A stretch of DNA of 63,826 nucleotides, the filler included, from Reclinomonas americana ATCC 50394 (taxonomy: Eukaryota), in assembly GCA_048213135.1 (NCBI GenBank). It is 7 parts of 3 records of this genome, joined end to end, with 100 filler letters (N's around TTAATTAATTAA, not from the genome) between each part and the next. Parts side by side here need not be neighbours in the genome. Positions count along the whole stretch, not along the records: positions 6,390 to 15,267 come from PS015327.1; positions 15,368 to 46,388 come from PS015327.1; 5 more parts are not named here. The stretch is one strand, 5' to 3'. Under the pieces are notes generated by a model that was not told where the DNA came from, searched no databases, and was given only the letters and a program-made list of their open reading frames with translations. Both the position numbers and the translations under genes were made by a program. Shown here one piece after another: positions 3,385-60,725 of this stretch (its first letter is position 1; each line of letters opens with the position of its first letter).

Positions 3385-4624
3385 TGTAAACTCACTCTCT
3401 CGCCGTCCCTTTCAAAACAAGAATCCAACAACTCATCCAACCAATCAAAATCGACTTATCCAAGCGCGCGCGCGAAACACACTCAGTGGTCTCCCTGCTG
3501 TCTTTCTGTCTCTCCTCGCTCTCCTCCATCACCATCAACACACACTCAGAGTACGCGGTGAACGGCGAGCACACGCACCGTCAATCTCTTCCCCTCCTCC
3601 CTCCCTCACTCACTCTCTCTCCACCTCTCACTCCCCAGTNNNNNNNNNNNNNNNNNNNNNNNNNNNNNNNNNNNNNNNNNNNNNNNNNNNNNNNNNNNNN
3701 NNNNNNNNNNNNNNNNNNNNNNNNNNNNNNNNNNNNNNNNNNNNNNNNNNNNNNNNNNNNNNNNNNNNNNNNNNNNNNNNNNNNNNNNNNNNNNNNNNNN
3801 NNNNNNNNNNNNNNNNNNNNNNNNNNNNNNNNNNNNNNNNNNNNNNNNNNNNNNNNNNNNNNNNNNNNNNNNNNNNNNNNNNNNNNNNNNNNNNNNNNNN
3901 NNNNNNNNNNNNNNNNNNNNNNNNNNNNNNNNNNNNNNNNNNNNNNNNNNNNNNNNNNNNNNNNNNNNNNNNNNNNNNNNNNNNNNNNNNNNNNNNNNNN
4001 NNNNNNNNNNNNNNNNNNNNNNNNNNNNNNNNNNNNNNNNNNNNNNNNNNNNNNNNNNNNNNNNNNNNNNNNNNNNNNNNNNGGGAAGGGAAGAGAATGA
4101 AGGACGAGAGCAAAGGCGGAAGGGGAAAGAGAATGAGGGAGGTGCAGGACATAGGGTCCAGAGTGTAAATGAGTGCGAGAGGGAAATCTGCGACCGACGG
4201 GGATGGAAAAGGGAAGAGGAATAAGGGAAAGGCGGAAGGAAATAGGGAAGGAAGGGGGAAGGAGTGAGGGAAACGGGTATAGGAGAAAGGGTTCAGAGTG
4301 TAAACGAGTGCGAGAGTGAGAGAAAGTGATGACAGACAGGGATGGAAAAAAGGGAAGGGGAAGACGGGAAAGGGGAATGAGGGAAAGGGGGACAAGGGAA
4401 AGGGGAAGGATGTATGAAGAGAGAAATGGCGGAAGGGGAAAGACAGCGGACTTGATTCACGTGTATGTCTGTCACACTCATCTCTCTCTAGCTTTCTCTG
4501 TTGTCTGTCTCTCTCTCTCGCCATTCTCTCTGTTGAGTGCAAGACAAGAACATGAGACAGCGACAATACAAAGAGAGTTCCCGACCTTGCGCAATCCCAC
4601 CCCCTCCCCCACGCAAGCATGCAC

Positions 4625-7793
<3,169 letters not shown>

Positions 7794-8205: not shown

Positions 8206-9403
8206 ATGACGTCCAAGGTGTGCTTGTGGTGTGCGTGTGTGTGCGTGTGTGTATGTGCGTTTGTGCGTTTCGCTTATTGTCTCGTGTGTGCGCGTGTGTG
8301 TTTTTGTGCGTGCGTGTGTTTGTGTTTGTTTGTGTGTGTTTCACTTCTGTCTTTGAATGTGCGTTTCACCGCGTGTACAGGTGTTGGAGGGACACACAGA
8401 TGAGGTGACCTGTGTCACCGTCACCCCCGATGGCCGGCACATTGTAAGCGGGAGTAAAAATAGCGAAGTTCACGTGTGGCCACTGGCGAGCGGGGAGGAG
8501 GTGCGACGGTATGAGTACGGCGGCGAAGAGATCTGGTCTGTCGCCGTCACACCAGACGGGCAGCACGTGGTGTGTGGGAGCAACTGCTGCATTGCGGTCC
8601 TCTCCATTGCGAGTGGTGACACACGATCGATTACGATATCGATGGATCGGTGATGTCCATTGCCATCACTCCCGATGGTCAACACGTCGCGAGTGGCTGT
8701 CTTGACGGGATAGTGCGCGTGTCGTCACTGGCGACTGGCAAGGTGGTGCGACGATAGACACACAAACAGTGTGTATTCTGTTGCCGTCACTCCTGACGGT
8801 CAACACGTGGTGAGCGGCAGTGATGACAATACGGTGCGCGTGTGGTCACTCGTGACTGGCAAGGAGGTGCGACAGTTTGACGGACACACTGATAGTGTGT
8901 GTGCTGTCGCCGTCACTCCCGACGGACAGCACGTCGTGAGTGGGAGTGACGACGGGACGGTGCGGGTGTTTTCTCTGGCGAGCGGACAAGAGTGGCGGCG
9001 GCTGGAGGGGCACACTGAAGCGGTTTGGTCTGTCGTTGTCACTCCCGATGGACAGCACGTCGTGAGTGGGAGTGACGACGGGACGGTTCGAGTGTGGTCA
9101 TTGGCGAGTGGAGAGGAAATGCGACGATTGGTGGGACATACTCGAGCCGTGATGTCCGTCGCCGTTACCCCCGACGAGCAGCACATTGTCAGTGGCAGTG
9201 GAGATCAGACGATCCGAGTGTGGTCTTCGCCGCGTGGCCTCGCTCAGCAGGAGCTCTTGGCGGCTCGATTGGCTGTGCTGGCCGTCAACGAGCTGCTTGC
9301 CGCAGATGATGAGGATCGCGACTGGATCCTTGTGGATGTGGTGCTGCGGTGCTTTGTGGCGGAGGATGCCGAAGTGATTGTACGTCGTGCGCCGGAGTGG
9401 TGA
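8206..9403 (+). pseudogene. WD40 array copy 1 (7 blades + conserved tail), disrupted
   Basis: MTSK exon 8206-8217, intron 8218-8380; blade 3 lies in a shifted frame (~8625-8754) ending in TAG 8755-8757; original frame resumes by 8771. Confidence 0.75.
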
Positions 9404-9821
9404 AGGCGGGCGAAGGGTTGTATATGAGTGAAGCTCGAATCCTCTCTTGTAGTTGGTATCCATGATACGATGCAGTCCCTGGAGACTGCAAAGAGTTCAC
9501 TGTCAAAATGCATTGACGACGCCGAGCGTCTGCAGAGATCCACGCATGCAGGAAAACTGCCGCATCACCACCACACAGAGTGAGGTGCTCCTACTGCGGG
9601 GCAGAAATCGTCGGTTCTGAGTAGGTTGGCGACCCGGTTGTTTGCGTGCACGGATAGCTCTAGTTGATGGTTTGTAAATAGATGGGAATGGTACGGAGTA
9701 CCGACACAGAAGCAAATGAAACCCAGTTTGTCGAAACGAGGAGTCTGTGAAGAATGAGAGACAATCGGGCGAAAGCGAGCAACGAAACGCTACGCACGCA
9801 CTCGCCTCTGCAACAAGCAGA

Positions 9822-10970
9822 ATGACATCCAAGGTGTGCTCTGGCTGTCCTCCCTGTGTGCGTGCGTGTGTCTCACCACAAGCGCAGGTGTTGAACGGGC
9901 TCACTGGCTTCGTGCAGTCCGTCGCCGTCACTCCCGATGGTCAGCACATTGCAGGCGCGAGCTACAGTGGCCAGCTTTGTGTGTGGTCACTGGCGAGTGG
10001 GGAAGAGGTGCGACGGATGGAGGAAGACACAGGTGCAATGCAAGCCGTCACCGTAACTCACGACGGCCATCACATCGTGAGTGCAAGTGATGACCACACA
10101 GTGCGAGTGTGGTCACTGATGAGCGGCAAGCAACTGCGACTGTTTGTTGGATATGTTTGGGGCATGTCCAATGTCGTCGTCACAACCGATAGTCAGCACA
10201 TCGTGTGTGGGGGTTGCGTCGGCCCCGCGGACAGGAGGGGCAAGGGACTTGGACTTTCTCTGGGGAGTTGCCGAGTGGGAATGTGGTCACTGACGACTGG
10301 AAAACAGGTGCGGCGGCTGGTGGGTCACACTGAACCGGTGAAGTCTGTTGCCGTCACTCCCGACGGCCAGCACGTTGTGAGTGCGAGTGACGACAAGACC
10401 GTGCGTGTGTGGTCACTCGCGAGTGGAGAAGAGGTGCGACGGTTGGAGAGATGTACTGGATTGGTGAACTCTGTCGCCGTCACTCCCGATGGCCTGTACG
10501 TTGTGAGCGGCGGTGATGACGAGACAGTACGAGTGTGGTCGCTGGCGACAGGAGACGAAGTGCGACGGCTGGTGGGCCACACCTCTTGGGTGACAACTGT
10601 CGCCGTCACTTTCGATGGTCTTCATATTGTGAGCGGGAGTAATGACGAGACCGTGCGAGTCTGGTCACTGGCGAGTGGACAGGAAGTGCGACGGTTGAAT
10701 GGGCATGCTGACGCCGTGTTATCCGTCGCCGTCACTCGCGATGGTCTGCACATTGTCAGTGGGGGTGCGGATAGCATCGTTCGAGTGTGGTCCTCGCCGC
10801 GTGGCGTCGCCCATCTGGAGCTCTTGGCGGCTCGATTGGCGGTGCTGGCCGTCAACGAGCTGCTTGATGATGAGGGCGATGATCCCGACTGGATCCTTGT
10901 GGATGTCGTGCTGCGGTGCTTTCTGGTGGAGGATGCCGAAGTGATCGAGCGCCGTGCGCCGGGGTGGTGA
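9822..10970 (+). CDS. WD40 array copy 2: 7-blade propeller + conserved C-terminal tail
   Basis: Exon 9822-9833 (MTSK), intron 9834-9887; seven repeats of type GH..V.SVAVTPDG.H.VSGS.D.TVRVWS; ends RRAPGW*. Confidence 0.88.
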   Translation: MTSKVCSGCPPCVRACVSPQAQVLNGLTGFVQSVAVTPDGQHIAGASYSGQLCVWSLASGEEVRRMEEDTGAMQAVTVTHDGHHIVSASDDHTVRVWSLMSGKQLRLFVGYVWGMSNVVVTTDSQHIVCGGCVGPADRRGKGLGLSLGSCRVGMWSLTTGKQVRRLVGHTEPVKSVAVTPDGQHVVSASDDKTVRVWSLASGEEVRRLERCTGLVNSVAVTPDGLYVVSGGDDETVRVWSLATGDEVRRLVGHTSWVTTVAVTFDGLHIVSGSNDETVRVWSLASGQEVRRLNGHADAVLSVAVTRDGLHIVSGGADSIVRVWSSPRGVAHLELLAARLAVLAVNELLDDEGDDPDWILVDVVLRCFLVEDAEVIERRAPGW

Positions 10971-11292
10971 GCAATGAGCAAAGAGGTTGAGCGCTGGTAT
11001 TCAAATGAAGGCCACTCGTTGCCTGTCTTGTCTGGGTCACAACGGCGAAGATGATTCGAGGCGCAGACATCAGCATCAGGTCCATGGCTGAATTCATGTG
11101 TGCAGGCACATGAAAGACAACCTAGAGTCCACCATTCAATTGCAGTGACGATGCCAAGTGTCTATAGAGATCCACCCATGCAGGAAAGCTGACTCATCGC
11201 CACCGCGCCGAGTGAAGAGTTCAACCGAGAAGTGAGAAACAGAATCGCGAGCGAGCAATCCACTCTCTCACACACGCTTTTGCGAGAACAGA

Positions 11293-12397
11293 ATGATGAT
11301 GTCCAAGGTGTGATGTGTCGTCTCTACCATGCGTCTGTATGTTTGTTTCACCACGAGCGCAGGTCTTGAAGGGAGACGCGGGCGAGGTGACTTGTGTCGC
11401 CCTCACTCCCGATGGTCTGCACATTGTAAGCGGAAACATGAAAGGCCAACTGCGAGTGTGGTCACTGGCGAGTGGGGAAGAAGAGCGACGGTATGAGCAC
11501 GGTGAACCAATCCGATCTGTTGCCGTGACTCCTGACGGGCGGCACATCGTATTTGGGAGAGATGTCTGCATCGTTTCTCTGCTTTCCTTTGCCACTGGAG
11601 AGCAAGTGCGACTGCTTGACACTGACGAATACGATGGAGCGGTGATGTTCACCGCGGTCGCCCCCGACGGTCAACACGTTGTGAGTGGGGGTATGGACAG
11701 CACAGTGCGACTGTGGTCACTGGCGACTGGCAAGGAGCTGCAACGGTTTGAGGGACACACGGACTATGTGTCTTCCGTTGCTGTCTCTCCTGACGGTCAG
11801 CACATCATCAGCGGAGGCGATGACAAAACAGTACGTGTGTGGTCACTTGTGACTGGGAAGATAGTGTGGAACTGCCGGGGACACACTGCCTTTGTGTTGT
11901 CTGTCGCCGTGACTCCCAGCTGCCAGCACGTTGTGAGTGGCGGCTGGGACCGTACATTGCGAGTGTGGTCACTGGCGACTGGGCAGGAGGAGCGACGGCT
12001 GGAGGGACACGCCGACACGGTGATGTCTGTCGCCGTCACTCCCGACGGTCGCCACGTTGTGAGCGGGAGCAAGGACAAGACTGTACGAATGTGGTCACTG
12101 GCGACTGGCGAAGAAGTGCGACGACTGGAGGGACATGCATCTGGAGTGAGTTGTGTCACCATCGCTGCCGACGGGCAGCACATTGTCAGCGGCAGTGAGG
12201 ACAAGACGATCCGAGTGTGGTCGTCGCCGCGTGGCCTCGCTCAGCAGGAGCTCTTGTCGGCACGTTCAGCTGTGCTGACCGTCAACGAGCTGCTTGATAA
12301 TGAGGAGGATCGCGACTGGATTCTTGTCGATGTGGTGCTGCGGTGCTTTCTGGCAGAGGACGCCGAAGTGATTGAACGCCGTATGCCGGGGTGGTGA
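11293..12397 (+). CDS. WD40 array copy 3
   Basis: Exon 11293-11307 (MMMSK), intron 11308-11362; seven WD40 repeats plus tail. Confidence 0.88.
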
Positions 12398-12604
12398 GAT
12401 CAGTCGGGCAAAGGGCTGCGCACTACTGCCAATGAAGATGCATTCTTCTCTTGTCTGGGTCAAGACAGGGAGATCGATGATTCGAGGCACAAAGGCCAAT
12501 GCATTGACAAAGGGAGCCCATTCGTGCAGGAAAACTGAAGTCATCGCGGGAGACAATCATGCATGAGTCACTCATTTGCTGTCTCACACCCACGCCAAAG
12601 TGAA

Positions 12605-13713
12605 ATGATCTCCCAGGTGCGTGCGTCTCTGTCGCTCGCTACCCCTTTGTTGCTCTCGCTCACCGCGAATGAGCGACACAGGTGTTGAAGGGACACACCA
12701 ACTGGGTGGAGTCTGTCGCGGTCACCCCCGACGGTAAGCACGTCGTGAGCGGGAGTTACGACAGCACAGTGCGTGTGTGGTCAATCGCAAGTGGAAGAGA
12801 AGTGTGTCGGTTGGAGGGATGCACGCAAGACGTGCTGTCGGTCGCCGTCACACCCGACGGTCTGCACATTGTGAGTGGAGATGGCGGTGTTGACGTGTGT
12901 GTGTGGTCGCTGGCGAGTGGCGACGAAGTGCGACGGATGGAGGGACACTCTGGAACGGTGTTCTGTGTGGCTGTCGCACCCGATGGTCAGCACATTGCCA
13001 GTGGGAGCAGCGACGAGACGGTGCGAGTGTGGTCGGTCGAGAGTGGAGAACAAGTGCGACAGTTCGACGGACACAACGGATGGGTGTTCTCTGTTGCTGT
13101 CACACCTGATTGTCAGCACGTCGTGAGCGGCACCGACGACAAGACGGTGCGAGTGTGGTCACTTGTGACTGGGAAGATAGTGTGGAACTGCCGTGGACAC
13201 ACTGCCTTTGTGTTTTCTGTCGCCGTCACTCCCGATGGCCAGCACATTCTCAGTGCGAGTGAAGACGGGACAGTGCGGGTGTGGTCACTGGCGACTGGGC
13301 ACGAGGAGCGGCGGCTGGAGGGGCACGCTAACATGGTGATGTCTATCGCTGTCACCCCCGACGGTCAACACGTTGTGAGCGGGAGCAAGGACAAGACTGT
13401 ACGCGTGTGGTCTGTAGCGAGTGGCGAAGAAGTGCAACGATTGGAGGGACATACATCTGGAGTGCGTTGTGTCGCTGTCACTCCCGACGGTGAGCACATT
13501 GTCAGCGGGGGTGAGGACGAGACGATTCGAGTGTGGTCCTCGCCGCGTGGCCTCGCCCAGCAGGAGCTCTTGGCGGCGCGTTTGGCTGTGCTGGCCGTCA
13601 ATGAGCTGTTTGCTGAGGACGATAATCGCGACTGGATCCTTGTGGATGTCGTACTGCGGTGCTTTGTGGCGGAGGATGCAGCCGTGATTGAACGCCGTGC
13701 GCCGGGGTGGTGA
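12605..13713 (+). CDS. WD40 array copy 4
   Basis: Exon 12605-12616 (MISQ), intron 12617-12681; seven WD40 repeats plus tail. Confidence 0.88.
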
Positions 13714-14018
13714 GCAATGAGCAAAGGGGTTGAGCACTGGTATTCGAATGAAGGCCACTCGTTGCCTGTCTTTGAGTCACTTCGCGATCGGTGAAGACAG
13801 ACATTCGTCCGCATGCATTCTCCTGACAACGTCGAAGCCAGTCATCGACGTTGCCAAGCGTCTATAGAGATCCACCCATGCAGGAAAACAGACATAACAG
13901 CACCGCGCCGAGTGAAGAGTTCAACCGGGAAGTGACAATCTATGCATGATGAGCGAGCAATCCACTCTATCTCTCTCTCACACACACACACACGCAAGCG
14001 CGCTTTTGCGAGAGCAGA

Positions 14019-15175
14019 ATGACATCCAAGGTGTGTGTGTGTTTCGCTTTTTTTGTCTTGTGTGTACGCGTGTGTTTGTGTGCAAGTGTGTATTTGCGTG
14101 TTTCGCTTCTGCCCTGCGTCTATTTATGGGTGTTTCACCATGAGCACAGGTCTTGAAGGGACACAGAAATGAGGTGACCTGTGTCACCGTCACCCCCGAT
14201 GGTCAGCACATTGTAAGTGTGAGTATAGATCGCCAAGTCTACGTGTGGCCACTGGAGAGTGGAGAGGAGGTGAGATGGGATGAGTTCGGCGAAGCGATCT
14301 GGTCTGTTGCCGTCACACCAGACGGGCAGCACATAGTGTGTGGGAGCGACTGTTGCATTGGAGTCCTCTCCTTTGCGAGTGGTGACTTTGAGCTTGAAAT
14401 ATCAGATTACAATGATTCGGTGATGTCCGTCGCCGTCACTCCCGACGGTCAACACGCTGTGGGTGGCAGTGTTAACTCAAGAGTGCGCGTGTGTTCACTG
14501 GCGACTGGCAAGGAGGTGCAAGTGTTCGAGGGACACACCGATCGCGTACAATCCGTCGCTGTCACTCCTGACGGTCAACACGTGGTGAGCGGCAGTGATG
14601 ACAAAACAGTGCGCGTGTGGTCACTCGTGACTGGCAAGGAGGTGCGACGACTGGAGGGACACTCTGGAACGGTGTTCTGTGTGGCTGTCGCACCCGATTG
14701 TCAGCACCTCCTCAGTGGGAGTGACGACAGGACAGTGCGGGTGTGGTCATTTGCAAGTGGACAAGAAGAGCAGCGGCTCGAGGGACACACCGACATGGTG
14801 ATGTCTGTGACCGTCACCCCCGATGGCAGGCACGTCGTGAGTGGGGGCTTTGACCGGACTGTCCGAGTGTGGTCGCTGGCGAGTGGGGAGGAAGTGCAGC
14901 GATTGGAGGGACATACATCTGGAGTGCGTTGTGTCGCCATCGCCCCCGACGGGCAGCACATTGTCAGTGGCAGTGATGACGAAACGATTCGAGTGTGGTC
15001 GTCGCCGCGTGGCCTTGCCCATCAGGAGCTCTTGGCGGCTCGTTCAGCCGTGCTGGCCGTCAACGAGCTGCTTGATGATGAGGAGGACCCCGACTGGATC
15101 CTTGTCGATGTCTTGCTGCGGTGCTTTGTGGCGGAGGATGCCGAAGTGATCGCGCGCCGTGCGCCGGGGTGGTGA
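14019..15175 (+). CDS. WD40 array copy 5
   Basis: Exon 14019-14030 (MTSK), intron 14031-14149; seven WD40 repeats plus tail. Confidence 0.88.
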
Positions 15176-15584
15176 GCGATAAGCAAAGGAGCTGAGCCCT
15201 GGTATTCGAATGAAGGCCACTCGTTGCCTGTCTAAGGGAAGATGACTGTTGGAGAAGATTTTATCTTNNNNNNNNNNNNNNNNNNNNNNNNNNNNNNNNN
15301 NNNNNNNNNNNTTAATTAATTAANNNNNNNNNNNNNNNNNNNNNNNNNNNNNNNNNNNNNNNNNNNNGTTGTTGGTCGTGTGGTCGCTGGCACAAAAGTT
15401 GAGTCAAGCAACCGAGACGGTCCACTGTTAAAATGCAGTGACGTTGCCAAGCGTCCATAGTGATACACCCGTGCAGGAAGGCTGGCTCGTCACCGCGAGG
15501 TGCAATAAACTCGAAGCGACTCGCAATCGTGCGATCCTGTCCCACGGCTCTTACTCACGCTCGTCTCTACTCTGTGAGAACAGA

Positions 15585-16684
15585 ATGACGTCCAAGGTGT
15601 GCTCGTGTTGTCTCTCATCTCTGTCATGCTTCCGTGTGTTTCACCATGAGCGCAGGTCTTGAAGAGAGACGCGGGCGAGGTGTCATGTATCGCCATTACA
15701 CCCGATGGTCAGCACATTGTATGCGGTGACACCGGTGGCCAGCTTTGCGTGTGGTCGCTGGCGAGTGGAGAGGAAGTGCGTCGGTACGAATACGATGACG
15801 CTATCTGGGCTCTTGCTGTCACCCCAGGCGGGCAGCACATCGTGTGTGGGAGCGAAGACTGCACTGTTGCAGTGCTTTCCGTTGAGAGTGGAGAAAGAGT
15901 GAGTCGTTTGAAAGGGCACACTTGGTGGGTGGTTTGTGTCGCTATTGCCAGCGACGATCAACACGTCGTGAGTGGCAGTCTTGACTGTTCAGTGCGAGTG
16001 TGGTCACTGGCGACTGGCAATGAGGTGCGACGATTAGTGGGACACACAGATTTTGTGTATTCTGTCGCTGTCTCACCAGACAGTCAGCACGCGGTGAGCG
16101 GGAGTTGGGACAAGACTGTGCGAGTGTGGTCGCTGGCGAGTGGTGAGGAGGTGCGACGACTGGAGGGGCACACTGCATGTGTGTTTTCAGTCGCGGTCGC
16201 TTCAGATGGCCAGCATATAGTGAGTGGTAGTTTGGATAATACGGTGCGAGTGTGGTCACTGGCGACTGGGCAAGAAGTGCGACGCTTGGAGGGACACACC
16301 GATTGTGTGTATTCCGTCGCCATCGCCCGAGACGATCAGCACATAATAAGTGGGAGCTCTGACAGGACAGTCCGAGTGTGGTCACTGACGAGTGGCGAAG
16401 AAGTGCGACGATTGCAGGGACATACATTCGGAGTGCGTTGTGTCGCCATCGCCCCCGACGGGCAGCACATTGTCAGTAGCAGTGATGACGAAACGATTCG
16501 AGTGTGGTCGTCGCCGCGTGGCCTTGCCCATCAGGAGCTCTTGGCGGCTCGTTCAGCCGTGCTGGCCGTCAACGAGCTGCTTGATGATGAGGAGGATCAC
16601 GAGTGGATTCTTGTCGATGTGGTGCTGCGGTGCTTTGTGGCGGAGGACGCCGAAGTGATTGAACGCCGTACGCCGGGGTGGTGA
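15585..16684 (+). CDS. WD40 array copy 6
   Basis: Exon 15585-15596 (MTSK), intron 15597-15655; seven WD40 repeats plus tail. Confidence 0.88.
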
Positions 16685-16949: not shown

Positions 16950-19900
16950 TCAAGTGACCTCCTCCACGTCGTCATCACCATCGGCGCCGGGCAAAACGGG
17001 ATTCACTTGTGCGGGAGGCGGTCGCCTGCGCGGACCGCGAAGTGCGCGCAGGTGGCTACGCGAGGCGAGATGTGCTTGCCAGCTGACATCGCCTTGGAAA
17101 CGACGACCGCCACATGCGTCGCACGTGTGCACCGAGCGCAAAAGCAGCGAATTGGCGGAGAGGCCGGAGGTGGTGGCGGGATCTGGTGGGTCGTCGGGGA
17201 GCGGCGGAAGGCGGCCGGCAAAGAAATCTGCACAGGCGTTTTTTGAGCGTCTTTCCATATAATGTATGCAGGCAGGCACGCATACGCACCTGCGGCCTCG
17301 TCGCGCAGGCGAGCCACCTCCGCAGGCCACTGCGTGAGGTCTGAGGCATAGGTGATGGAGGTGTGAGACGGATGGCAGAGTTCTGCAATGGAGAGGTGGA
17401 GACGTGACGAAACCCGATGAATCCGCCTGTCGCCAGTAAAAGTACTTGTCGGCCAGCGGTCGCAGCGTGTTGGTGATGTACTTGTGCTGGCGCATGGCCA
17501 AGTGTACAGTGTGCGTCACGAGCGAGGTAATGGAGGTGGCGAGCAGGCCTAAACGAGTAGAGGGATGAGAAGGGGGAGGAAGGGGCAAAGTGAGGGAAGA
17601 CGAAAATGGGAGCCAGTAGAAATGGCAGGTGGCGAGCGATTGAGGGAGCAGAGTGAGTGATCAAGAACGAGGAAGGAGAGTAAAGATCGAGGCCAAAGTG
17701 CAGGCAAGAGAGGAGGGCAAACAAAGAGATACCAAGAGATCGGCAGCAGACAGTGAGAAACCAAGGCAGAATAGCGAGCACACGAGAGAGGAGAGGGAGC
17801 ACGCAAGGTAGGAGGGTGAGAGATTGAGGCAGGAGAGCGAGAAAACTAAGCAGCAAGCCCAGCGAACGGCAAGTGGGAAAGGAGAGTGAGAGACGGAGAC
17901 AGAAGTGCAGAAACGGAAAGAGCAAACAAAAGGGAGAGCACACGATCGGCAATTGGGAGCGAAAGGGCGAGCGTCCAAGGTAAGAGACCATTGGAGGAAT
18001 GCAGGGAGTGAGCTTATGGGGACGGAGAGTGAGCAACCAAGATGGCAGACGAACAGGGAGACCGAAACCCCAGTAACTCAGAGCGTGCGAGCTTTCACTG
18101 TAGGAGACTGAGAAGACAATTATGGAGAGTGAAAGATGAGAGAGAGAGAGAGAGAGAGACAGAGCAACGCTGGAGAGAGAGAGGCAGCACAAGACGAGAG
18201 AGACGAAAAGTCGAGGAAGGAGAGGGAGCGATCAAAAACAAGAACTGGACTGCAAGAAGAAAGTCTACGTTGAGGAAGCAAACACGGAGATTGGTAAGAA
18301 AGGAACTGGGGAAGAGAGTGTGTGTGAGAGAGAGAAAGAGTATGCTGTCCAACTGTGCGCAATTCACGAGAGCTGATGCAAGTCCCTTGCTTTTTTCGTG
18401 CGCCTCACCCTCATCCTCCACCACACCCTCGCCCGCCTCGACATATCCCAGAAACTCCTTGCACCCGATCGACTGCAGCAACCCGCGCTCCGTGTCCGCC
18501 ACATCTACGGCACGCTGACGGCACTCGGCAACAAACTCTCGGATCTCGTTCAGCAAGCCGCGCTGCCGTCGTCGCACATGCGATTAGCATGAAAACAAGA
18601 TGCTTCCGCCCTCAGATCACACACCTCCACCATCTTGTCGACGCGCTCCCGTAACCTCTCGTCTAGCACCTCCTTGTTGCAGTGCGTGTGCACAAACATC
18701 ACATTCGATGGCCGGAATCTGCCCTCGCCAATGTCTGTCCCTCACGCTCACACTCCCACTACTCCCTCCAGAGTCACTCACCTCGGTCGCTGCGAACAGG
18801 CACCAGCCGCGGCGTCACTGCCCTCCCCCGCTGCTGCTGCTGCTGCTGCCGACTCAGCGCCACGAATGAGCTCACTCTGCGGCCTGCCCGTCTCCGCAAA
18901 GATCTCCAAGCTGCGCCGTACACGCCGCACGTCGTTCTGATGCAATCGCTCCGCCATCCACGGGTCCACCTCCTGCAGTCGCCGATACAGCTCCTCGCCG
19001 CTCAATCCGTCCAGCTCCGAGTGTACAGCCGCCTGCTCGCCGGCCTGGGAGGCCAGTGCGTGCACCAGCAACGAGCGCAGGTAGTAGTGTGTGCCGCCGA
19101 CAATGACAATTGGGTGGCCGCGGCGGGAAATGTCACGAATCTGTGGAGGGGGAAGGGTGGAGGCAAAGGGGATAAGAGGGGAGAGGGGGAAAGGAGATGG
19201 GGGAGGTGAGAAGGGAGAGAGAAGGGAGAGAGAAGGGAAGGGAATGGGAAGGGAAAGAGGCACAAAGAATGGAAAGAAAAGGAGAACAGTGGGAGATGGG
19301 ACAGCGAAAGAAATCAAGGCAGGATGATGGAGTGAGGGGAGAGTGAGAAACCAGCGAGAGAAAGAGAGAGAAAGAGAGGGAGAGGAAAAGAGAATGACGA
19401 AAAACGGTGAAAGGAACAGAAAGAGGAAGGGACAAAGAATGGAAAATGAAGGAGAAAGGATGGCGAAAGAAAGAAAATGGGGTGAGGGAGAGCGGGAGGA
19501 AAGACAAAGACTGGAGAACGACAAAGACAGAACAAGGGGGACAACGTGTGAGAAACGAGAGACAACTGAGAGAGACATAGATGGAAAAGAGGAGATAGGA
19601 GAGTGGACGGGAAAGAGAGAGAAGTGCGCGAAGAAATGACAATTTGGAGAGTGAAGATGAGAGAGAGAGACAGAGCAACGCTGGAGAGAGAGACAACACA
19701 AGACGAAAGAGAGCGAAAAGTCGAGGAAGGAGAGGGAGCGATCAAAAACAAGAACTGGACTGCATAGAAAACAAACCGCAAGAAGAAGTCTATGTTGAGG
19801 AAGATTGGTTAGAAAGGAACTGGGGAAGAGAGAGTAGTGCGCGAAGAAATGACGAAAGAAACAGAGCGGCAGTGACTGCCGACCAATCTCACCAGCTCCA

Positions 19901-21015
19901 ACGCCATGCGCACAAAGTCGACCACCGTTAGCTGCTCGCCAACGCGCGTGATCGACAACAAGTGGTGTGGAACGCCACACATTTCCTCCTCGGTGACCTT
20001 GTTGGTCGCTATGTCCAGGCCCACGTACATCTAGGAAGAGGCAAAGTGAGAGAGGAGAGAGAGGGAGAAGGAGGAGGAGAAGGAGGTGGAGGAGGAAGAG
20101 GAGGAGGATGAGTGAGAAGGGGGAGTGTGTGAGAGAGATAAGGAGGAGGAGAAGGAGGAGGAGGAGGAGGATGAGGAGAAGGGAGAAGAAGTGATAATCA
20201 TTGAGGACAAGAAGAAGGCGGAGCGAAGCAAAGAAGCACGGGGAGACAGCGAAGAATAGAAGCAGGAGAGGAGGAGACAGAAAAAGGAGGAAGGGGGAGA
20301 GAGATGGAGAAAGAGAAGTTGCTGGTTGATAAAGGCGAAGAAGGAGGTGCAGATATGCAGAGAAGGGAAACAGTGGAGAGACTGAGTTGCAAGGCGATGC
20401 TGAATAACGGTGATGAAGAGCAAGGGGAAGAAGACGAAGACAAAGAAGAGAAGGGAGGAAGAGGAGGACTAGAGAAACGAGAGGTGCTGTGCTGACGGAG
20501 AAGGCTGGAGGAGGAGACGAATAAGGGAGTCAGAGAAGGGAGTGCGAGGAGCGACAAAGATAGAGAAGGGAAGATTGAAGAGACATATCAAGGAGCGAGA
20601 CTGAGAAGGAGACAGAGACAGAGAAGACGAAGGCGAAGAAGGGAAGACTGAAGGAGGGGACTTAGAAGGGAGTCAGAGGGGACACGAGAAGGGGGGGGAG
20701 ACAGAGAAGGGTGGGAGAAAAGGGACATAGAGAATGTAATGCAGATGATGATCACAATGAAGAAGAAGAGGAAAGGCAAAGGGACAGGAGAGAGAGAGAG
20801 TGAGAGAGAGAGAGACAGACAGAAGAACAAGTGTGAGAGACTCTCCCTCCCACCTGCATCGCATCGGCATTGATGATTTCGGCATTGACATGTTTGGCGA
20901 TCTCGACTGCCAGCTGCGTCTTACCGGCGCCGGTGGGACCGCCAACGACCACGAGCTTTGCTGAGCGAGACACGTCATCGACAGGGCCACTGCCACTGCT
21001 GCTCCCGCCACTCAT
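16950..21015 (-). CDS. TRIT1: tRNA dimethylallyltransferase (MOD5/TRIT1 type) with C-terminal zinc finger, multi-exon
   Basis: VVVGGPTGAGKT, IINADAMQ|MYVGLDIATNK, VPHHLL, IVGGTHYY, LQEVDP...LHQNDVRRVRRSLEIF, QSIGCKEF, CDACG...WQAHLASRSH. Confidence 0.92.
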
Positions 21016-21875
21016 GATATCGAAGGATGACGAAGGAGGAGGACAGGCGACGTTTTTCATTCATGCAACTGCAACTGCTTCTTCTGTATGCCAAACAGCA
21101 ATGCAGGCGCAAGATGGTCATCATCTTGAGTGAGAACCAGCTGCAGAAACTGAGACATCCGAAGCAATCGAGACGTTTCATGAGTTGTCGGAGGTGGAAG
21201 AGCTCGAGGGCCTGAGCCTTGTGAGCCCTCTGCATTCGTACCCTTGATACGCTGGATCCACCACCTCTCCGTCGCATTGCAGTTCCTTGTTTTGTGATCA
21301 TGTGGGAACGCTTGAGTTGATTCCCACCTTCCTGGTCGTGACTTCCAACCCTTGATCTGCCCGCTTCATGCAGTGGCAACCCTTGAGACTGCTCACCTCC
21401 ATCGTTCTCGTCGCGTTGGTGCCAAATGCTCAGTCGTCACTCAGCTGGTTCTGTACTCCGACTCTTCATCTCAGAGTAAAGTCTCGTCTCACGAACCCAG
21501 CAACAATCATGGAGGTGACCGTTTCGTGATATCCTACGTTGCCTTGCGTACATGTGGCAAACCTCCGCCATCATCTCCTTATTGTCATGGTAATGTTGGT
21601 ACAACGCATCACGTGACAACTCTGCAGCCCCTCTTCAACCTGCGATCTTGAACTTTTCTCTCTCTCTCTCTCTCTCTCTCGACCTTCGACTCTCTGTCCC
21701 CCAAACCATGGCACCATTCTCGCTTTACCATGCTTGTTTCACCCTTCGACTCTCTGATCCTTGCACCCTTGTCCTTTTCATGACAGCCGGGCAGGTAGGG
21801 AAGGCTGACCAATCACTCTCCCCGCGGTCTTCCCCTCCGAGAGCTCTCAGCGCGCTTGTCGACACTGTCGGCACG

Positions 21876-40334: not shown

Positions 40335-43300
40335 CTCTCTCTCTGTGTGTCTCTCTCTCTGTGTGAGCGCTTGTGTGTGTGTGTGTGTGTGTGTGCGTGT
40401 GTGTATGTGTGTGTGTGTGTGTGTGTGAATGCTCACTATCTACATCAGCATCATGTCCAGTGCATCGGCATTGTCAGCGCGGTTTGTTGTCAGACTGTAG
40501 GTTCCTCACGCTAGTTGTTGCAGCTCACGTAATCTCGCACAGAACGGCGTTCAACCGCGTCGACATGGCCTTTGAGGTGGTCGTCGACGCCCTGCGACTA
40601 CGCTGTCAACTCGTACTGGCACAGTTCAGTCGCGATCATCCCGACTTTGATGTGCGGGCGTGGACTCCGGATGTGTGGACGCCGCCGTTGTTCTGGCATC
40701 CACTGACGATCAAGGCGTGGCACGATCAACATGCTCCACTCGCCCCTGGTCGCGTCAAGTTGTTTGCACCGCAGAAGCAGCACATGCTCGACTGGAAGTC
40801 TGTTTTTGACGCCGACCCCGCCACAGATCCCTCATGTGACGCTTTCGACGTGACAGCCTTGGTGTCAATCCTACTTTTTGGTGGCTTTGTGTTTGACGAC
40901 GGTCGCAAGCTGCTGCTGATCGACACCGTCGATGAGCGGAAAGCGGTTGAACAGTTGCGAGAGGTGCGGAACGAATTGGTTCACGGTTCGTCAGCCTGGA
41001 CCGAGTCCAGTGTACAAGAGTATCTCGGTGATGGCGGTGTATTTTACGCTCTCCTCGGACGGCTGCGCCTTCCTGTGGATGTGATTGATGGATTTGCATC
41101 ACGGATTCGTGAGGCGCGCCACCTCGACTTCAGCGTCAGCACATTCGAGGAACGACTGCATCGACTGGCTGTGCGAGAGATGGACTATTATCACGAAGAT
41201 GAGAGTGTGCGCAAGGACATGCAGACGTATGTGCCACTGCTGTGCTCGCGTGAGCGTGACGTCTCATCGAGGGACAAGATGACGAATCTATTGACGGAGA
41301 TGGATGCTTTCCTCTCCGACACCAATACCACGCAGCGAGTGTTGGTGCTATTCGGTAACAGTGGCGCCGGCAAGACCACCACCATGTCTGTGCTGGCTGA
41401 GCGAGCATGGCGACAGTGGCAGGCGAAAGCAAGTCGGCGTGTGCCTGTGCGTGTGCCTCTTGGTGCACTGCGCAATGCTGATGTGCGGTTGTTGGAGGAG
41501 GCACTGGGGCGACTGTCGCCCGAGTTGGGATTCAGTGAGCCGGATGTGCGACGACTGAAGGAGGAACCACTGTTGTTGTTGCTTGACGGGTACGACGAGC
41601 TGTATCGTGGCGTGAATCTGTTTGTCAAGAATCAGTTGGATGTGTGTCGCGATGTGAAGGTGATTATCACCTGTCGCGGCGATTACGCACTGACGGCATT
41701 GGATGGAGCGACGCAGTATCGACGGTACTTTGCGCCGGTGGATGCACGTGGACAGTTGTGCATGCAGCAGCTGATGGAACGACACATTGCACCGTTCAAC
41801 AAGGAGCAGATTGAGGAGTACTTTGAGCGAGTGGTACGGATGGGCGGTGATGACGGTGAAGTGAGGTGGTCGACTGCAGAGGAGTACATTCGTGCTCTGA
41901 AGAGTGTGCATGGACTGGATGTGCTGGTGTCGAATCCATTCCTGCTGACAGTGGTTGCAAGTGTGCTGCCGCAGTTGGTGGCGAGTGGTGTGCAACGACC
42001 GACCCGATGTGATGTGTTTGACCGATTCATTCGACAGTGGATTGTGCGGGAACAGGATAGGCAGACGCGTCTTGGTGCGGAGAGTGTGCCGAATGAGGAG
42101 ACGTGTCTCTCGTTCTGTGAGGGACTGGCACGGTTGATGCATGAGAGGAATGTGGTGCGCGTGACATCAGAGGAACGAGCATTCGAGGAAGACATTGCTG
42201 ACTTTGGTGGTGCACCACTTGCCAGTGGGCAAGTGGATGAAGGACCGTTTGACAAGTTCCTCGGCTACAAGAACCAGCATGTGCGAGTATGCTGTCCGAT
42301 TGTGCGACGGTATGGGACGACGCAGTGGGGTTTCGTGCATCTGTCGCTGCTGGAGCACTGTGTGGCACGGCATGTGTTTGCGTGGGAGACGTGGGATGAG
42401 GAGAGGAGGATGAAGATGCAAGATGTGCAGCAGCATGTGCTGGCAGTGCGACTGCTGAATGATCGACCATCGTTGGTGGAGCAGATGGCCGAGGTGGTGC
42501 GACGGTCGTCTCGGTTGCAAGAGAGATTGTGGGAGGTGATTGGGTTGTCGAGGGAGGTGGACAGTCGGCGAGTGGTGAAGGCAGCGGCGAATGCCGCAAC
42601 GGTGCTGTGCGTGGCGCAAGTGTCGTTCAGTGGGCGCAATCTGTCGGGTGTGCGAGTGAGGGGTGCGGATTTGAGGGATGCGGTGATGCACAGGACGGTG
42701 TGGAGGGGAGCGGATTTGCGAGGGGTGAATGTGTGCCTGGCGTATGCGAGGAAGGCGGATTTCAGAGGGGCGGATGTGACGGGAGTGAAGTGGCCGAGGA
42801 AACCGATGATGGGGCACAGTGAAGCTGTGATGGCTGTTGCCATTACTCCCGATGGTCAGCACGTTGTGAGTGGCAGTTGGGACAATACTGTGCGGGTGTG
42901 GTCGCTGGCAAGTGGCGAGGAGGTGCGTCGACTGGAAGGTCACACGAGTGGGGTGAATGCGGTAGCAGTAACTCCCGATGGCCAGCACATTGTGAGTGGC
43001 AGTAATGACGATACTGTACGGATGTGGTCGGTGGCAAGAGGCGAGGAGGTGCGCCGAATGGAAGGTCACACGAGTAGGGTGTGGGCAGTGGCTGTGACAC
43101 CCGATGGTCAGCATATTGTGAGTGGCAGTTGGGACAAGACTTTACGGGTGTGGTCGGTGGCGACTGGCGAGGAGGTGGTCCGACTGGAGGGCCACACGAG
43201 AGAGGTACATGCAGTGGCAGTGACACCCGACGGTCAGCACATTGTGAGTGGCAGTTTGGACGAGACTGTACGAGTGTGGTCGGTGGCAAGTGGCGAGGAG

Positions 43301-44623
43301 GTGCGCCGACTGGAAGGCCACACGCGTGGGGTGTGGGTAGTGGCAGTGACACCCGATGGCCAGCACGTTGTGAGTGGCAGTGCAGATGAGACTGTGCGAG
43401 TGTGGTCGGTGGCAAGTGGTGAGGAGGTGCGTCGACTGGAAGGCCATGCGAGTGAGGTATCCGCAGTGGCAGTGACACCCGATGACCAGCACATTGTGAG
43501 TGGCAGTGGGGACAATACAGTACGAGTGTGGTCCGTGGCAAGTGGCGAGGAGGTGCGCCGACTGGAAGGTCACACAGAGTGGGTGCGTGCATTGGCGATG
43601 ACAGCAGATGGCCAGCACATTGTAAGTGGCAGTTATGACGAGACTTTACGGGTGTGGTCTGTGGCAAGTGGCGAGGAGGTGCGCCGACTGCAAGGCCACA
43701 CGGATGCGGTGGCTGCAGTGGCAGTGACACCCGATGGCCAGCACATTGTAAGTGGCAGTGATGACAGAACTGTGCGGGTGTGGTCAGTGGCAAGTGGTGA
43801 GGAGGTGCGCCGGCTGAATGGCCACACGGAAGAGGTGTGGGCAGTGGCAGTGACACCCGATGGCCAGCACGTTGTGAGTGGCAGTTGGGACAATACTGTG
43901 CGGGTGTGGTCGCTGGCAAGTGGCGAGGAGGTGCGTCGACTGGAAGGTCACACGAGTGGGGTGAATGCGGTAGCAGTAACTCCCGATGGCCAGCACATTG
44001 TGAGTGGCAGTGATGACGATACTGTACGGATGTGGTCGGTGGCAAGAGGCGAGGAGGTGCGCCGAATGGAAGGTCACGCGGGTGAGGTGTGTGCAGTGGC
44101 CGTGACACCCGATGGCCAGCACATTGTGAGTGGCAGTGATGACAAGACTGTACGAGTGTGGTCGGTGGCAAGTGGCGAGGAGGTGCGCCGACTGGAAGGC
44201 CACACGAAGGAGGTGTATGCAGTGGCAGTGACGCCCGATGGCCAACACATTGTGAGTGGCAGTGATGACAAGACTGTTCGATTGTGGTCGGTGGCAAGTG
44301 GCGAGGAGGTGCGCCGACTGCAAGGCCACACGGGATGGGTTTCTACAGTGGCAGTGACGCCCGATGGCCAACACATTGTGAGTGGCAGTGATGACAAGAC
44401 TGTTCGATTGTGGTCACAAGCAAGTGGTAATGGAGCGACGCTAGGCACTGGGGGCTTCTATTCTGGCGACGGCGCATTTCGCAGGACTGTCTTCACCGCC
44501 CAGTTCATCGTCCGTGCTGTCGGCAAGTCCGTTCACCTGCTGCGTTGCCAACCAGGCGGTGACTTGCTGGAGCGTATCTGTGGTTCTTTCTTACCCGACT
44601 TCACGGGTGCCTTGCATAAGTGA
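39912..44623 (+). CDS. NLR-like STAND protein: Ubl-like - HEPN-like - NACHT - pentapeptide repeats - 13x WD40
   Basis: Exons 39912-39920 (MST), 39977-40272, 40543-44623 join in frame; FDVTALVSIL...LREVRNELVH; Walker A GNSGAGKT; Walker B LLLLLDGYDE; VIITCR; NPFLL; F.H.S..E; AAANAATVL; GADLRDAVMHRTVWRGADLRG; WD40 array. Confidence 0.9.
42810..44415 (+). repeat. 13 tandem 126-bp WD40-coding repeats with high internal identity
   Basis: gcagtggcagtgacacccgatggccagcacattgtgagtggcagt-type core recurs every 126 bp. Confidence 0.92.
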
Positions 44624-46388: not shown

Positions 46389-46488
46389 NNNNNNNNNNNN
46401 NNNNNNNNNNNNNNNNNNNNNNNNNNNNNNNNTTAATTAATTAANNNNNNNNNNNNNNNNNNNNNNNNNNNNNNNNNNNNNNNNNNNN

Positions 46489-60350: not shown

Positions 60351-60725
60351 GTGAGGCGAGAGAGGGAAAGGGGGCAAAGGGGAAGGGGGGAGGGGGGAGA
60401 AGGGGGGGAAGGGGGAGAAGGGGAGAAGAGAGTGAGTGAGTGAGAGAGAGTCTGTAAGCGTGTGTGTGTGTGTGAGAGAGAGAAAGAGAGAGAGAGGTGA
60501 GAGAGTTAGTGAGTGAGGGCGAGAGAGAGAGAGAGAGAGTGCGAGAGAAAGAATGCGTGTGAGAATGAGAGAGAGAGTGTGTGTGAGTGAGTGAGTGAGA
60601 GAGTGAGTGCGTTTGTGTGTGTGAANNNNNNNNNNNNNNNNNNNNNNNNNNNNNNNNNNNNNNNNNNNNTTAATTAATTAANNNNNNNNNNNNNNNNNNN
60701 NNNNNNNNNNNNNNNNNNNNNNNNN

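What the first reader, a model, noticed from the sequence alone, without database searches (positions are those of the whole stretch)
8206..16684. Tandem array of six hypervariable single-propeller WD40 genes with a shared uncharacterised tail: candidate diversified receptor repertoire
Seen: six head-to-tail ~1.3-1.6 kb units with the same plan: a 4-5 codon first exon, a phase-0 intron, exactly seven WD40 repeats and a conserved tail. Scaffold residues are conserved, while the residues after GH (e.g. TNWVE, SGTVF, NGWVF, TAFVF, ANMVM, TWWVV) and in SG-x-x-D-x vary widely. Known: these positions form the propeller top face and are under diversifying selection in fungal HET-E/HNWD NLRs. Inference: these are NLR-type sensor domains without an NTPase, coupled to a different output module, evolving by birth-and-death (copy 1 is disrupted).
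Basis: partly seen in the sequence, partly recalled or inferred. Interest (0 to 1): 0.8.

Follow-up and report, generated by a model that had tools for sequence, protein, structure and literature searches.

The report
Tandem WD40 genes sharing a novel tail
Six neighbouring copies of a small protein-binding gene keep the same scaffold and an uncharacterised helical tail but differ mainly on their binding surface, which suggests a set of adaptors with different targets; an immune role is not shown.

Summary
Six head-to-tail + strand genes (8206-16684) each have a 4-5 codon first exon, a 54-163 nt GT..AG phase-0 intron, seven 42-residue WD40 blades and a 58-59 residue helical tail. Copy 1 is frame-broken.

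Variation peaks at five blade positions: the d-a loop, the start of strand a, and the b-c turn. Four of these are the positions selected in fungal HET-E. A NACHT-pentapeptide-WD40 gene in the same window (40.5-44.6 kb) uses the same repeat type.

- At the variable sites the array gives a nonsynonymous/synonymous ratio of about 0.5-1.2, on saturated divergence (dS 0.6-1.2). This is not distinguishable from neutrality. The NACHT gene's own repeats do show an excess (0.42 vs 0.19, p 2e-4).
- Synonymous sites show no recent exchange between the array and the NACHT gene.
- The tail has no Pfam or PDB relative. In 1.84 billion representative proteins it matched only two, both WD40+tail (one from Reclinomonas americana). 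The family is therefore old and lineage-restricted, not a recently truncated NLR.

Best reading: a variable-face, constant-tail adaptor family, expanded by tandem duplication with birth-and-death. The tail's function is unknown.

The parts
8206..9403 (+). Copy 1, a pseudogene. Exon 1 is 8206-8217, the intron 8218-8380 and exon 2 8381-9403. The frame is lost near 8620-8634 and regained after 8751, with a first in-frame stop at 8651-8653.
9822..10970 (+). Copy 2. Exon 1 is 9822-9833, the intron is 54 nt and exon 2 is 9888-10970. It has seven blades, with a 16-residue insert in blade 3, plus the tail. It is the most divergent copy.
11293..12397 (+). Copy 3. Exon 1 has 5 codons (11293-11307), the intron is 55 nt and exon 2 is 11363-12397.
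12605..13713 (+). Copy 4. Exon 1 is 12605-12616, the intron is 65 nt and exon 2 is 12682-13713. It has an exact 42-residue period, and all seven blades are canonical. This copy was modelled.
14019..15175 (+). Copy 5. Exon 1 is 14019-14030, the GT-rich intron is 119 nt and exon 2 is 14150-15175.
15585..16684 (+). Copy 6. Exon 1 is 15585-15596, the intron is 59 nt and exon 2 is 15656-16684.
13537..13710 (+). The conserved 58-residue tail of copy 4 (SSPRG...PGW). The equivalent stretches in the other copies are 9224-9400, 10791-10967, 12221-12394, 14999-15172 and 16508-16681. It is predicted as three helices with falling confidence.
15268..15367 (.). Assembly gap between copies 5 and 6: two 44-N runs around a TTAATTAATTAA linker. 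Further copies could be missing here.
11143..11191 (+). One example (upstream of copy 3) of a roughly 45-nt intergenic block, ...GCCAAGYGTCTATAGAGATCCACCCATGCAGGAAA..., about 100-150 nt before the ATG. It recurs before copies 2-6 (in reduced form before copy 4); only its TGCAGG core aligns before copy 1. It is a candidate shared regulatory element. A second shared block of about 55 nt follows each stop codon.
40565..44623 (+). Context gene, not part of the array. It is a single-ORF NACHT + pentapeptide-repeat + 13 x 42-residue WD40 protein. It uses the same repeat flavour and has the same five variable positions.

Best explanation
The array holds six tandem paralogues, five intact and one broken. 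They belong to an old, lineage-restricted family of soluble proteins of about 345 residues. Each protein is a seven-bladed canonical WD40 propeller followed by a conserved three-helix tail of about 58 residues.

Shown:
- Whole units, including shared 5' and 3' flanking blocks, were duplicated in tandem.
- The scaffold and the tail are under purifying selection.
- The 3' end (blade 7, tail, start of the 3' flank) is the least diverged part.
- Amino-acid variation is concentrated at five top-face positions per blade, which evolve at roughly the neutral rate.
- At least one blade has been copied to a different blade position in another copy.

Inferred:
- Each paralogue presents a different binding surface and so binds a different partner.
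- Blade 7 plus the tail form a constant module that couples every paralogue to the same downstream partner or assembly. The logic is that of an adaptor or substrate-receptor family, not of an NTPase-switched receptor.
- What the tail binds is unknown.
For: Gene plan and fold.

Tandem whole-unit duplication: conserved flanking blocks.

Constraint: pairwise dN/dS is 0.29-0.49 for the propeller and 0.25-0.52 for the tail over the 10 pairs of intact copies. Omega for non-variable blade sites is 0.39.

Homogeneous 3' end: dS is 0.12-0.37 in the tail against 0.58-1.21 in the propeller. Blade 7 has the lowest pS, 0.30 against 0.46-0.61 for the other blades. Blade 7 of copies 5 and 6 is 97% identical at nucleotide level.

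Top-face variation:
- Entropy is 2.8-3.6 bits at positions 7, 8, 10, 26 and 28.
- On the model, strands span blade positions 9-14, 20-25, 29-34 and 40-45. Positions 7-8 therefore lie in the d-a loop, 10 at the start of strand a, and 26 and 28 in the b-c turn.
- The bottom loops (positions 15-19 and 35-39) have entropies of 0-2.6 bits, mostly below 1.9.
- Passages of Paoletti et al. 2007 (PMC1805685) place their selected pairs (7, 9) and (25, 27) in these same loops on the top face. These correspond to positions 8, 10, 26 and 28 here.

Blade transfer: blade 3 of copy 4 and blade 5 of copy 5 share 81% nucleotide identity, pS 0.30 and identical residues after GH.

Old family: the tail profile found 2 proteins in 1,835,955,588. 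One is a 394-residue protein that is colinear over propeller and tail at 28% identity. The other is a 116-residue Reclinomonas americana EST product, 62% identical over blade 7 plus tail. Blade 2 lacks the canonical GH in copies 3, 5 and 6; by my reading of the alignment the 394-residue relative lacks it there too.
Against: - No partner, expression or localisation data exist. No sequencing run could be listed, so even the short first exon and the intron rest on sequence conservation alone.
- The tail is modelled with low confidence (pLDDT 80 falling to 38) and has no relative of known function.
- Near-neutral evolution at the variable sites fits 'different partners' no better than 'no constraint at all'.
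- Scaffold omega of 0.3-0.4 is fairly relaxed.
- It is unexplained why 42 blades keep about 60-87% nucleotide identity although synonymous sites are close to saturation (median pS 0.57).
Confidence: 0.5

Rival explanations
1. The array is an NLR-like non-self or pathogen sensor repertoire. Free propellers under diversifying selection act as NTPase-less receptors, or as decoys or partners of NACHT-WD40 proteins, and signal through the tail.
For: - The repeat type and variable positions match those of the NACHT-pentapeptide-WD40 gene in the same window.
- That gene's repeats show an excess of nonsynonymous change at these positions: pN 0.42 against pooled pS 0.19 in 6 disjoint repeat pairs (one-sided Fisher p 2e-4), with pN 0.045 at the other sites.
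- The positions match those selected in HET-E/HET-D.
- The array has tandem, birth-and-death dynamics with one pseudogene.
- The variable sites often hold W, F, Y, M or R.
Against: - In the array itself no test gives a ratio clearly above 1: 0.88 (p 0.86), ML omega 0.54, and per-site values of at most 1.23 on saturated data.
- There is no recent sequence exchange with the NACHT gene (pS at least 0.43, median 0.68).
- There is no similarity between the tail and the NACHT protein.
- The family, with its tail, exists in diverged form elsewhere with a degenerate propeller. That fits an old conserved function better than an arms race.
- All copies have exactly seven blades, with no repeat-number variation among the paralogues.
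Confidence: 0.2
2. The copies are redundant paralogues drifting apart. The top-face positions are simply unconstrained surface residues, and the copies share one function carried by the scaffold, blade 7 and the tail. The variation is noise, not a repertoire.
For: - Variable-site rates cannot be told from neutral.
- Scaffold omega is relaxed, at 0.3-0.4.
- One copy is already dead.
- Blade 7 keeps its top-face residues among copies 3-6: SGSEK, SGREE, SGRDE, FGRDE.
Against: - Five copies have stayed open across dS 0.6-1.2.
- The bottom-face loops are equally exposed yet conserved, while only top-face positions vary. From general knowledge, not tested here, the top face of single-function WD40 families is usually the most conserved surface.
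Confidence: 0.2
3. The proteins are substrate receptors of a ubiquitin ligase or a similar modular machine. The constant C-terminal helical box recruits a shared core, as a SOCS box or F-box does, and the variable propellers select the substrates.
For: The architecture is analogous: a variable WD40 propeller plus a short, constant three-helix box at one end. The comparison with WSB and FBXW proteins comes from my own knowledge, not from a call.
Against: No SOCS-box, F-box or any other Pfam family matches the tail, even at E up to 10. There is no PDB sequence relative; the best E is 0.17, to Cas9, which is taken as chance. No BC-box-like L-x3-C-x3-hydrophobic pattern was evident on reading the tail.
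Confidence: 0.1

Closest known systems
WD40 domains of the fungal HNWD/NWD NLR family (HET-E, HET-D, HET-R of Podospora anserina)
   Same: Both have 42-residue, highly regular WD40 units. Variability is focused on the d-a loop and the b-c turn of the top face (passages of PMC1805685). Both are multigene families with pseudogenes and some repeat exchange.
   Different: - The array genes have no NACHT or HET domain.
- The repeat number is fixed at seven.
- Blades mostly pair by position rather than evolving in concert.
- Nucleotide identity between blades is 60-87% (97% in one pair), not up to 100%.
- No positive selection was shown.
- A conserved C-terminal tail is present.
The NACHT-pentapeptide-WD40 gene in the same window (40565-44623)
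   Same: It has the same blade consensus (..GHTxxVxxVAVTPDGQHIVSGSxDxTVRVWS.ASGEEVRRLE) and the same five variable positions.
   Different: - It carries an NTPase and 13 repeats.
- Its repeats are homogenised (median pS 0.29) and show an excess of nonsynonymous change at the variable sites.
- It has no tail.
- Its relatives at 26-30% identity are in Mortierellomycotina fungi and in Mycoavidus and Glomeribacter bacteria.
Highly repetitive bacterial WD40 propellers (PDB 5yzv Thermomonospora; 2ymu; designer WRAP-T 7big)
   Same: These are the best structural matches: Foldseek E 3.5e-33 to 4e-32, target TM 0.96 for the single-propeller chains (0.48 for the longer 2ymu chain), rmsd 0.8-1.3 A, 40% identity.
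   Different: They are bacterial or designed proteins and have no helical tail. The match covers only about 285 of the 343 residues.
WD40 + SOCS-box (WSB) and F-box/WD40 substrate receptors
   Same: The design logic is the same: a variable propeller plus a short constant helical box. This is an analogy from my own knowledge.
   Different: There is no sequence match to SOCS-box, F-box or any other Pfam family.

Membership tests
WD40 repeat beta-propeller (Pfam PF00400) | Multiple WD40 repeat matches above the gathering score | tested here: met
   All 5 intact proteins scanned score 174-249 bits against a cut-off of 27, with 6-7 stretches each.
WD40 repeat beta-propeller (Pfam PF00400) | Closed seven-bladed propeller fold | tested here: met
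   The AlphaFold2 model of copy 4 has 28 strands in 7 blades and mean pLDDT 90.2. Foldseek matches solved seven-bladed WD40 propellers at E 1e-33.
NLR / STAND receptors, including fungal HNWD/NWD (HET-E type) | Central NACHT or NB-ARC NTPase in the same polypeptide | tested here: not met
   No NTPase family appears among the 25 best Pfam families shown for each of the 5 proteins. Exon 1 has only 4-5 codons. The spacers between a stop and the next ATG are 207-418 nt, too short for an NTPase exon.
NLR / STAND receptors, including fungal HNWD/NWD (HET-E type) | Repeats with very high internal conservation, maintained by concerted evolution (repeats group by gene or species, not by position) | tested here: not met
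   Nearest neighbours are mostly the same blade index in another copy. Identities are mostly 0.60-0.89, with one pair at 0.97. Median pS between blades is 0.57. The exceptions are blade 3 of copy 4 with blade 5 of copy 5, and blades 3-6 of copy 6.
NLR / STAND receptors, including fungal HNWD/NWD (HET-E type) | Positive diversifying selection at the top-face positions of each repeat | tested here: inconclusive
   The same positions are the most variable. The ratios, however, are 0.88, 0.54 and at most 1.23 per site, on saturated divergence.
NLR / STAND receptors, including fungal HNWD/NWD (HET-E type) | Repeat-number polymorphism between individuals | not testable with these tools
   Only one assembly is available: no whole genome is held and no runs were listed.
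SOCS-box or F-box WD40 substrate receptors | A recognisable SOCS box or F-box | tested here: not met
   No Pfam family matches the tail at E up to 0.1. In 6 tails at E up to 10 the only hit is one chance match (Exop_C, E 0.19).
'WD40 + SSPxxLAxQEL...VLRCF tail' family (unnamed, defined here) | Seven-blade propeller directly followed by the conserved tail at the C-terminus | tested here: met
   All 6 window copies have it. Outside the window there are 2 hits in 1.84 billion representatives, at E 4.8e-11 and 5.5e-09, both WD40 followed by the tail.

The most novel reading that the evidence does not exclude
This protist runs a two-tier WD40 recognition system. NACHT-WD40 proteins have repeats under diversifying selection. 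Alongside them sits a genomically clustered repertoire of free single-propeller sensors. Their conserved blade-7-plus-tail module docks them in trans onto a shared signalling or effector partner. In effect this would be a 'split' NLR in which sensor and switch are separate genes, and it would be present in a deep-branching eukaryotic lineage.
Probability: 0.15. Interest if true: 0.75.

Novelty: new variant of a known kind. Interest (0 to 1): 0.42.

Why it matters
If the paralogues really bind different ligands and share one output through the tail, this is a compact, NTPase-free way to build a recognition repertoire from STAND-type WD40 repeats. It would also define a new small domain. The tail was seen in only three sources among the 1.84 billion representative proteins searched.

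The array also gives a natural contrast within one locus. The same repeat type appears homogenised and positively selected inside a NACHT gene, but old, position-stable and near-neutral in free propellers.

If the variation is only drift, the array is an ordinary tandem gene family.

Tried and rejected
- Whole genome: none is held, so the genome-wide count of tail genes could not be made.
- Earlier notes of this scan: nothing by place, sequence or words.
- Tail word search among proteins of 188-601 residues: no hit.
- Whole-protein search: 2334 WD40 proteins passed E 1e-20. The 120 listed were 26-59% identical, none above 59%. There is thus no sign of one-to-one orthology with a housekeeping family. 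Scores above the curated cut-offs of the WDR3 and WDR5 propeller models are taken as the effect of consensus-like repeats, not orthology.
- Tail in JGI metagenome contigs: 165 pattern matches, none confirmed.
- ESM Atlas, tail: no usable hit.
- PDB sequence profile search with the tail: best E 0.17, to Cas9, taken as chance.
- Public sequencing runs: none was listed and no RNA holder was listed. Read laying was therefore not used, and splicing and expression remain unverified.
- Tail homodimer prediction: 'no answer', score 0.01. This is not evidence either way.
- Tail against the NACHT protein by profile comparison: nothing.
- Gcp1-3, the Pex7-like WD40 proteins that co-occur with the mitochondrial T2SS in jakobids and others (passages of PMC8134430). 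I considered these because the only named tail relative is from a jakobid. I did not pursue them. They are described as Pex7-like, no sequences were at hand, and the supplements were not opened. The array proteins end in ...PGW, which by my recall is not a PTS1-type ending.
- Literature searches for small tail-bearing WD40 families or NLR-like genes in jakobids or protists: nothing describing this family. This is a limited full-text search, not proof of absence.

Full report
**What is there**

The region 8206-16684 holds six head-to-tail units on the + strand, starting at 8206, 9822, 11293, 12605, 14019 and 15585. Each unit has the same plan:
- an ATG exon of 4 codons (5 codons in copy 3);
- a GT..AG phase-0 intron of 54-163 nt;
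- one long exon that ends in ...PGW (PEW in copy 1) followed by a stop.

Without the small exon the long ORFs have no start codon ahead of blade 1. The donor (AAG|GTGTG, or CAG|GTGCG in copy 4) and the acceptor (CAG|GT) are conserved, while the intron interiors differ in length and sequence. The gene model is therefore well founded on sequence alone. No RNA evidence could be obtained.

The five intact proteins are 59-70% identical to each other. All five are strong WD40 matches. Copy 4 has a perfect 42-residue period. Its AlphaFold2 model is a seven-bladed propeller with mean pLDDT 90.2, followed by three helices at residues 288-312, 316-329 and 333-339. Confidence in the helices falls from about 80 to 38.

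Copy 1 is closest to copy 5 (82% nt identity). It carries -5/+1 nt near 8620-8634 and -5 nt at 8751, which put blade 3 out of frame and introduce stops. Five-base deletions are unlikely to be read errors, but the assembly is a gapped draft. A gap at 15268-15367 lies inside the array, so six copies is a minimum.

The units share more than coding sequence. About 55 nt after each stop, and a block of about 45 nt some 100-150 nt before the ATG (clearest before copies 2, 3, 5 and 6), are also conserved. Whole genes with their flanks were therefore duplicated.

**Where the variation lies**

I cut the 35 blades of the intact copies into one register, with GH at positions 4-5 and the turn Asp at 27.
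- Entropy is 2.8-3.6 bits at positions 7, 8, 10, 26 and 28. It is at most 2.6 bits at every other position.
- In the model, strands occupy positions 9-14, 20-25, 29-34 and 40-45 of each unit. Positions 7-8 therefore lie in the d-a loop, position 10 opens strand a, and positions 26 and 28 flank the Asp of the b-c turn.
- Paoletti et al. 2007 (PMC1805685, passages read) place their four positively selected HET-E/HET-D codons, pairs (7, 9) and (25, 27), in these two loops on the top interaction face. With a one-residue offset these are positions 8, 10, 26 and 28 here.
- The bottom loops (TPDGQ, positions 15-19, and LASGE, positions 35-39) are conserved. The variation is therefore specific to the top face and is not a general property of loops.

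**Is it diversifying selection?**

This is not shown.
- Over the 10 pairs of intact copies, Nei-Gojobori dN/dS is 0.29-0.49 for the propeller and 0.25-0.52 for the tail. Propeller dS is 0.58-1.21, close to saturation.
- Pooled over blades and pairs, the five variable positions give pN 0.53 against their own pS of 0.72, or against a gene-wide pS of 0.48. Per-position pN over mean pS peaks at 1.18-1.23 (positions 8, 10, 26).
- In five disjoint, closely related blade pairs the variable sites give pN 0.224 against pooled pS 0.254. The ratio is 0.88 (Fisher p 0.86). The other sites give 0.37.
- A GY codon model in IQ-TREE gives omega 0.54 for the variable partition (tree length 11.4) and 0.39 for the rest (tree length 2.8).

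The variable sites thus change about four times faster than the rest, at roughly the neutral rate. That fits either released constraint or selection that saturation now hides.

The first, evenly spread variation, is not met. The second, dN/dS below 1 at top-face sites, is neither clearly met nor clearly excluded.

**Relation to NLRs**

A single 1418-codon ORF at 40367-44623 (first Met at 40565) lies 24 kb downstream. It encodes a NACHT domain (PF05729, E 9e-10), pentapeptide repeats and 13 WD40 units of exactly 42 residues, with the same consensus as the array blades.
- Its repeats vary at the same five positions.
- In six disjoint repeat pairs those positions show pN 0.42 against pooled pS 0.19 (one-sided Fisher p 2e-4). 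All other positions show pN 0.045. This is the HET-E-like signature.
- Median pS among its repeats is 0.29, which points to concerted evolution.
- Between array blades and NACHT blades, by contrast, median pS is 0.68 and the lowest value is 0.43. The tail has no counterpart in the NACHT protein.

The array therefore shares the repeat type with an NLR-like gene but is not a recent offshoot of it. Structurally, its nearest solved relatives are highly repetitive bacterial WD40 propellers (5yzv, 2ymu; 40% identity). LIS1, WDR5 and G-beta follow at 25-31% identity.

**How the array evolved**

By nucleotide identity most blades are closest to the blade with the same index in another copy. This indicates duplication of an ancestral seven-blade gene. 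The exceptions are:
- blade 3 of copy 4 and blade 5 of copy 5, which share 81% identity, pS 0.30 and the same GH-SGTVF string;
- blades 1-2 of copy 4 and blade 2 of copy 2, which are of the canonical type where the other copies have a degenerate blade 2 without GH;
- blades 3-6 of copy 6, which are closest to one another.

The 3' end is the least diverged part. Blade 7 has pS 0.30 against 0.46-0.61 for the other blades. Tail dS is 0.12-0.37. Copies 5 and 6 are 97% identical in blade 7. Blade 7 also keeps its top-face residues in copies 3-6.

The picture is birth-and-death, with occasional blade transfer and a homogenised or strongly constrained module of blade 7 plus tail.

**The tail**

The tail is 58-59 residues long, with 37 of 59 alignment columns invariant in the six copies. 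It has no Pfam match, no PDB sequence relative and no Atlas neighbour. In the window it occurs only in the six copies.

A profile of the six tails was searched by HMMER against 1,835,955,588 representative proteins and found two.
- P0001 is a 394-residue protein from an unnamed assembly. It is colinear with copy 5 over propeller and tail at 28% identity.
- P0002 is a 116-residue product of a Reclinomonas americana EST, named by its source. It is 62% identical to copy 5 over blade 7 plus tail.

Aligned together, the eight tails keep a scatter of invariant residues: S, P, A, E-L, several A/V positions, an invariant L-R-C-F core and a terminal R. The motif can be read as S-[ST]-P-x-x-L-A-x-Q-E-L ... 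V-L-R-C-F-x-x-E-[DE]-A-x-V, with a variable charged loop in the middle. P0001 has degenerate blades. By my reading of the alignment it also lacks GH in blade 2, as copies 3, 5 and 6 do.

The propeller-plus-tail architecture is therefore older than this array, and the tail is its best-conserved part. The representative library holds one protein per 50% cluster, and the window's own proteome is not in the databases searched. 'Two' is therefore a floor.

**Mechanism**

I commit to the adaptor reading at about 0.5. The top face differs between paralogues and sets partner specificity. Blade 7 plus the tail is the constant part that couples all paralogues to one shared partner or assembly.
- Shown: the architecture, the pattern of constraint, and the duplication history.
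- Inferred: that the faces bind different partners, and that the tail is a docking element.

The rivals are:
- an NLR-like immune repertoire (0.2);
- neutral drift of redundant copies (0.2);
- ubiquitin-ligase-type substrate receptors (0.1).

A tail homodimer prediction returned no answer and is not used as evidence.

**Verdict**

It is a new variant of a known kind: a canonical STAND-type WD40 propeller fused to an undescribed tail domain, in a tandem family. Interest is moderate. It would rise sharply if low-divergence comparisons showed selection, or if the tail proved to link the propellers to the NACHT system.

Noticed in passing
window 40565-44623 (+): An intronless gene encodes a NACHT + pentapeptide-repeat + 13 x 42-residue WD40 protein. 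Its repeats are homogenised (median pS 0.29). They show an excess of nonsynonymous change at five top-face positions (pN 0.42 against pS 0.19, p 2e-4). This is a HET-E-like signature outside fungi. Its relatives, at 26-30% identity, are in Mortierella and Linnemannia fungi and in Mycoavidus and Glomeribacter bacteria.
   Followed up: partly
window 40565-41320 (+): [quoted passage not shown] It contains an R-x4-H motif (LREVRNELVHGS) that gives a sub-threshold Swt1-like HEPN hit (E 0.098). It may be a HEPN-type effector domain.
   Followed up: partly
window 6290-6389, 15268-15367, 46389-46488, 51092-51191, 55095-55194, 60626-60725: Scaffold joins recur in a fixed form: 44 N, TTAATTAATTAA, 44 N. 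Larger N runs lie at 3640-4082 and 6896-7597, and GA/CT microsatellites flank several of the gaps. This is a gapped draft assembly, so copy numbers in repeats are minima.
   Followed up: no
window 36047-37966 (-): A long ORF gives a strong match to DUF2264, annotated as 'conserved in bacteria' (E 8e-80). It is a possible gene of bacterial origin in this eukaryotic window.
   Followed up: no
window 4481-5626 (-), 18781-20529 (-), 21850-23568 (-): The neighbouring genes are ordinary: DUF4470/DUF4471, an IPP transferase domain, and an unrelated, weakly matching WD40 protein. The array does not sit in an obvious defence island.
   Followed up: no
window 8218-8380 and 14031-14149: The introns of copies 1 and 5 are expanded by GT-rich, microsatellite-like sequence (163 and 119 nt, against 54-65 nt in the other copies). 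These two copies are also each other's closest relatives.
   Followed up: no
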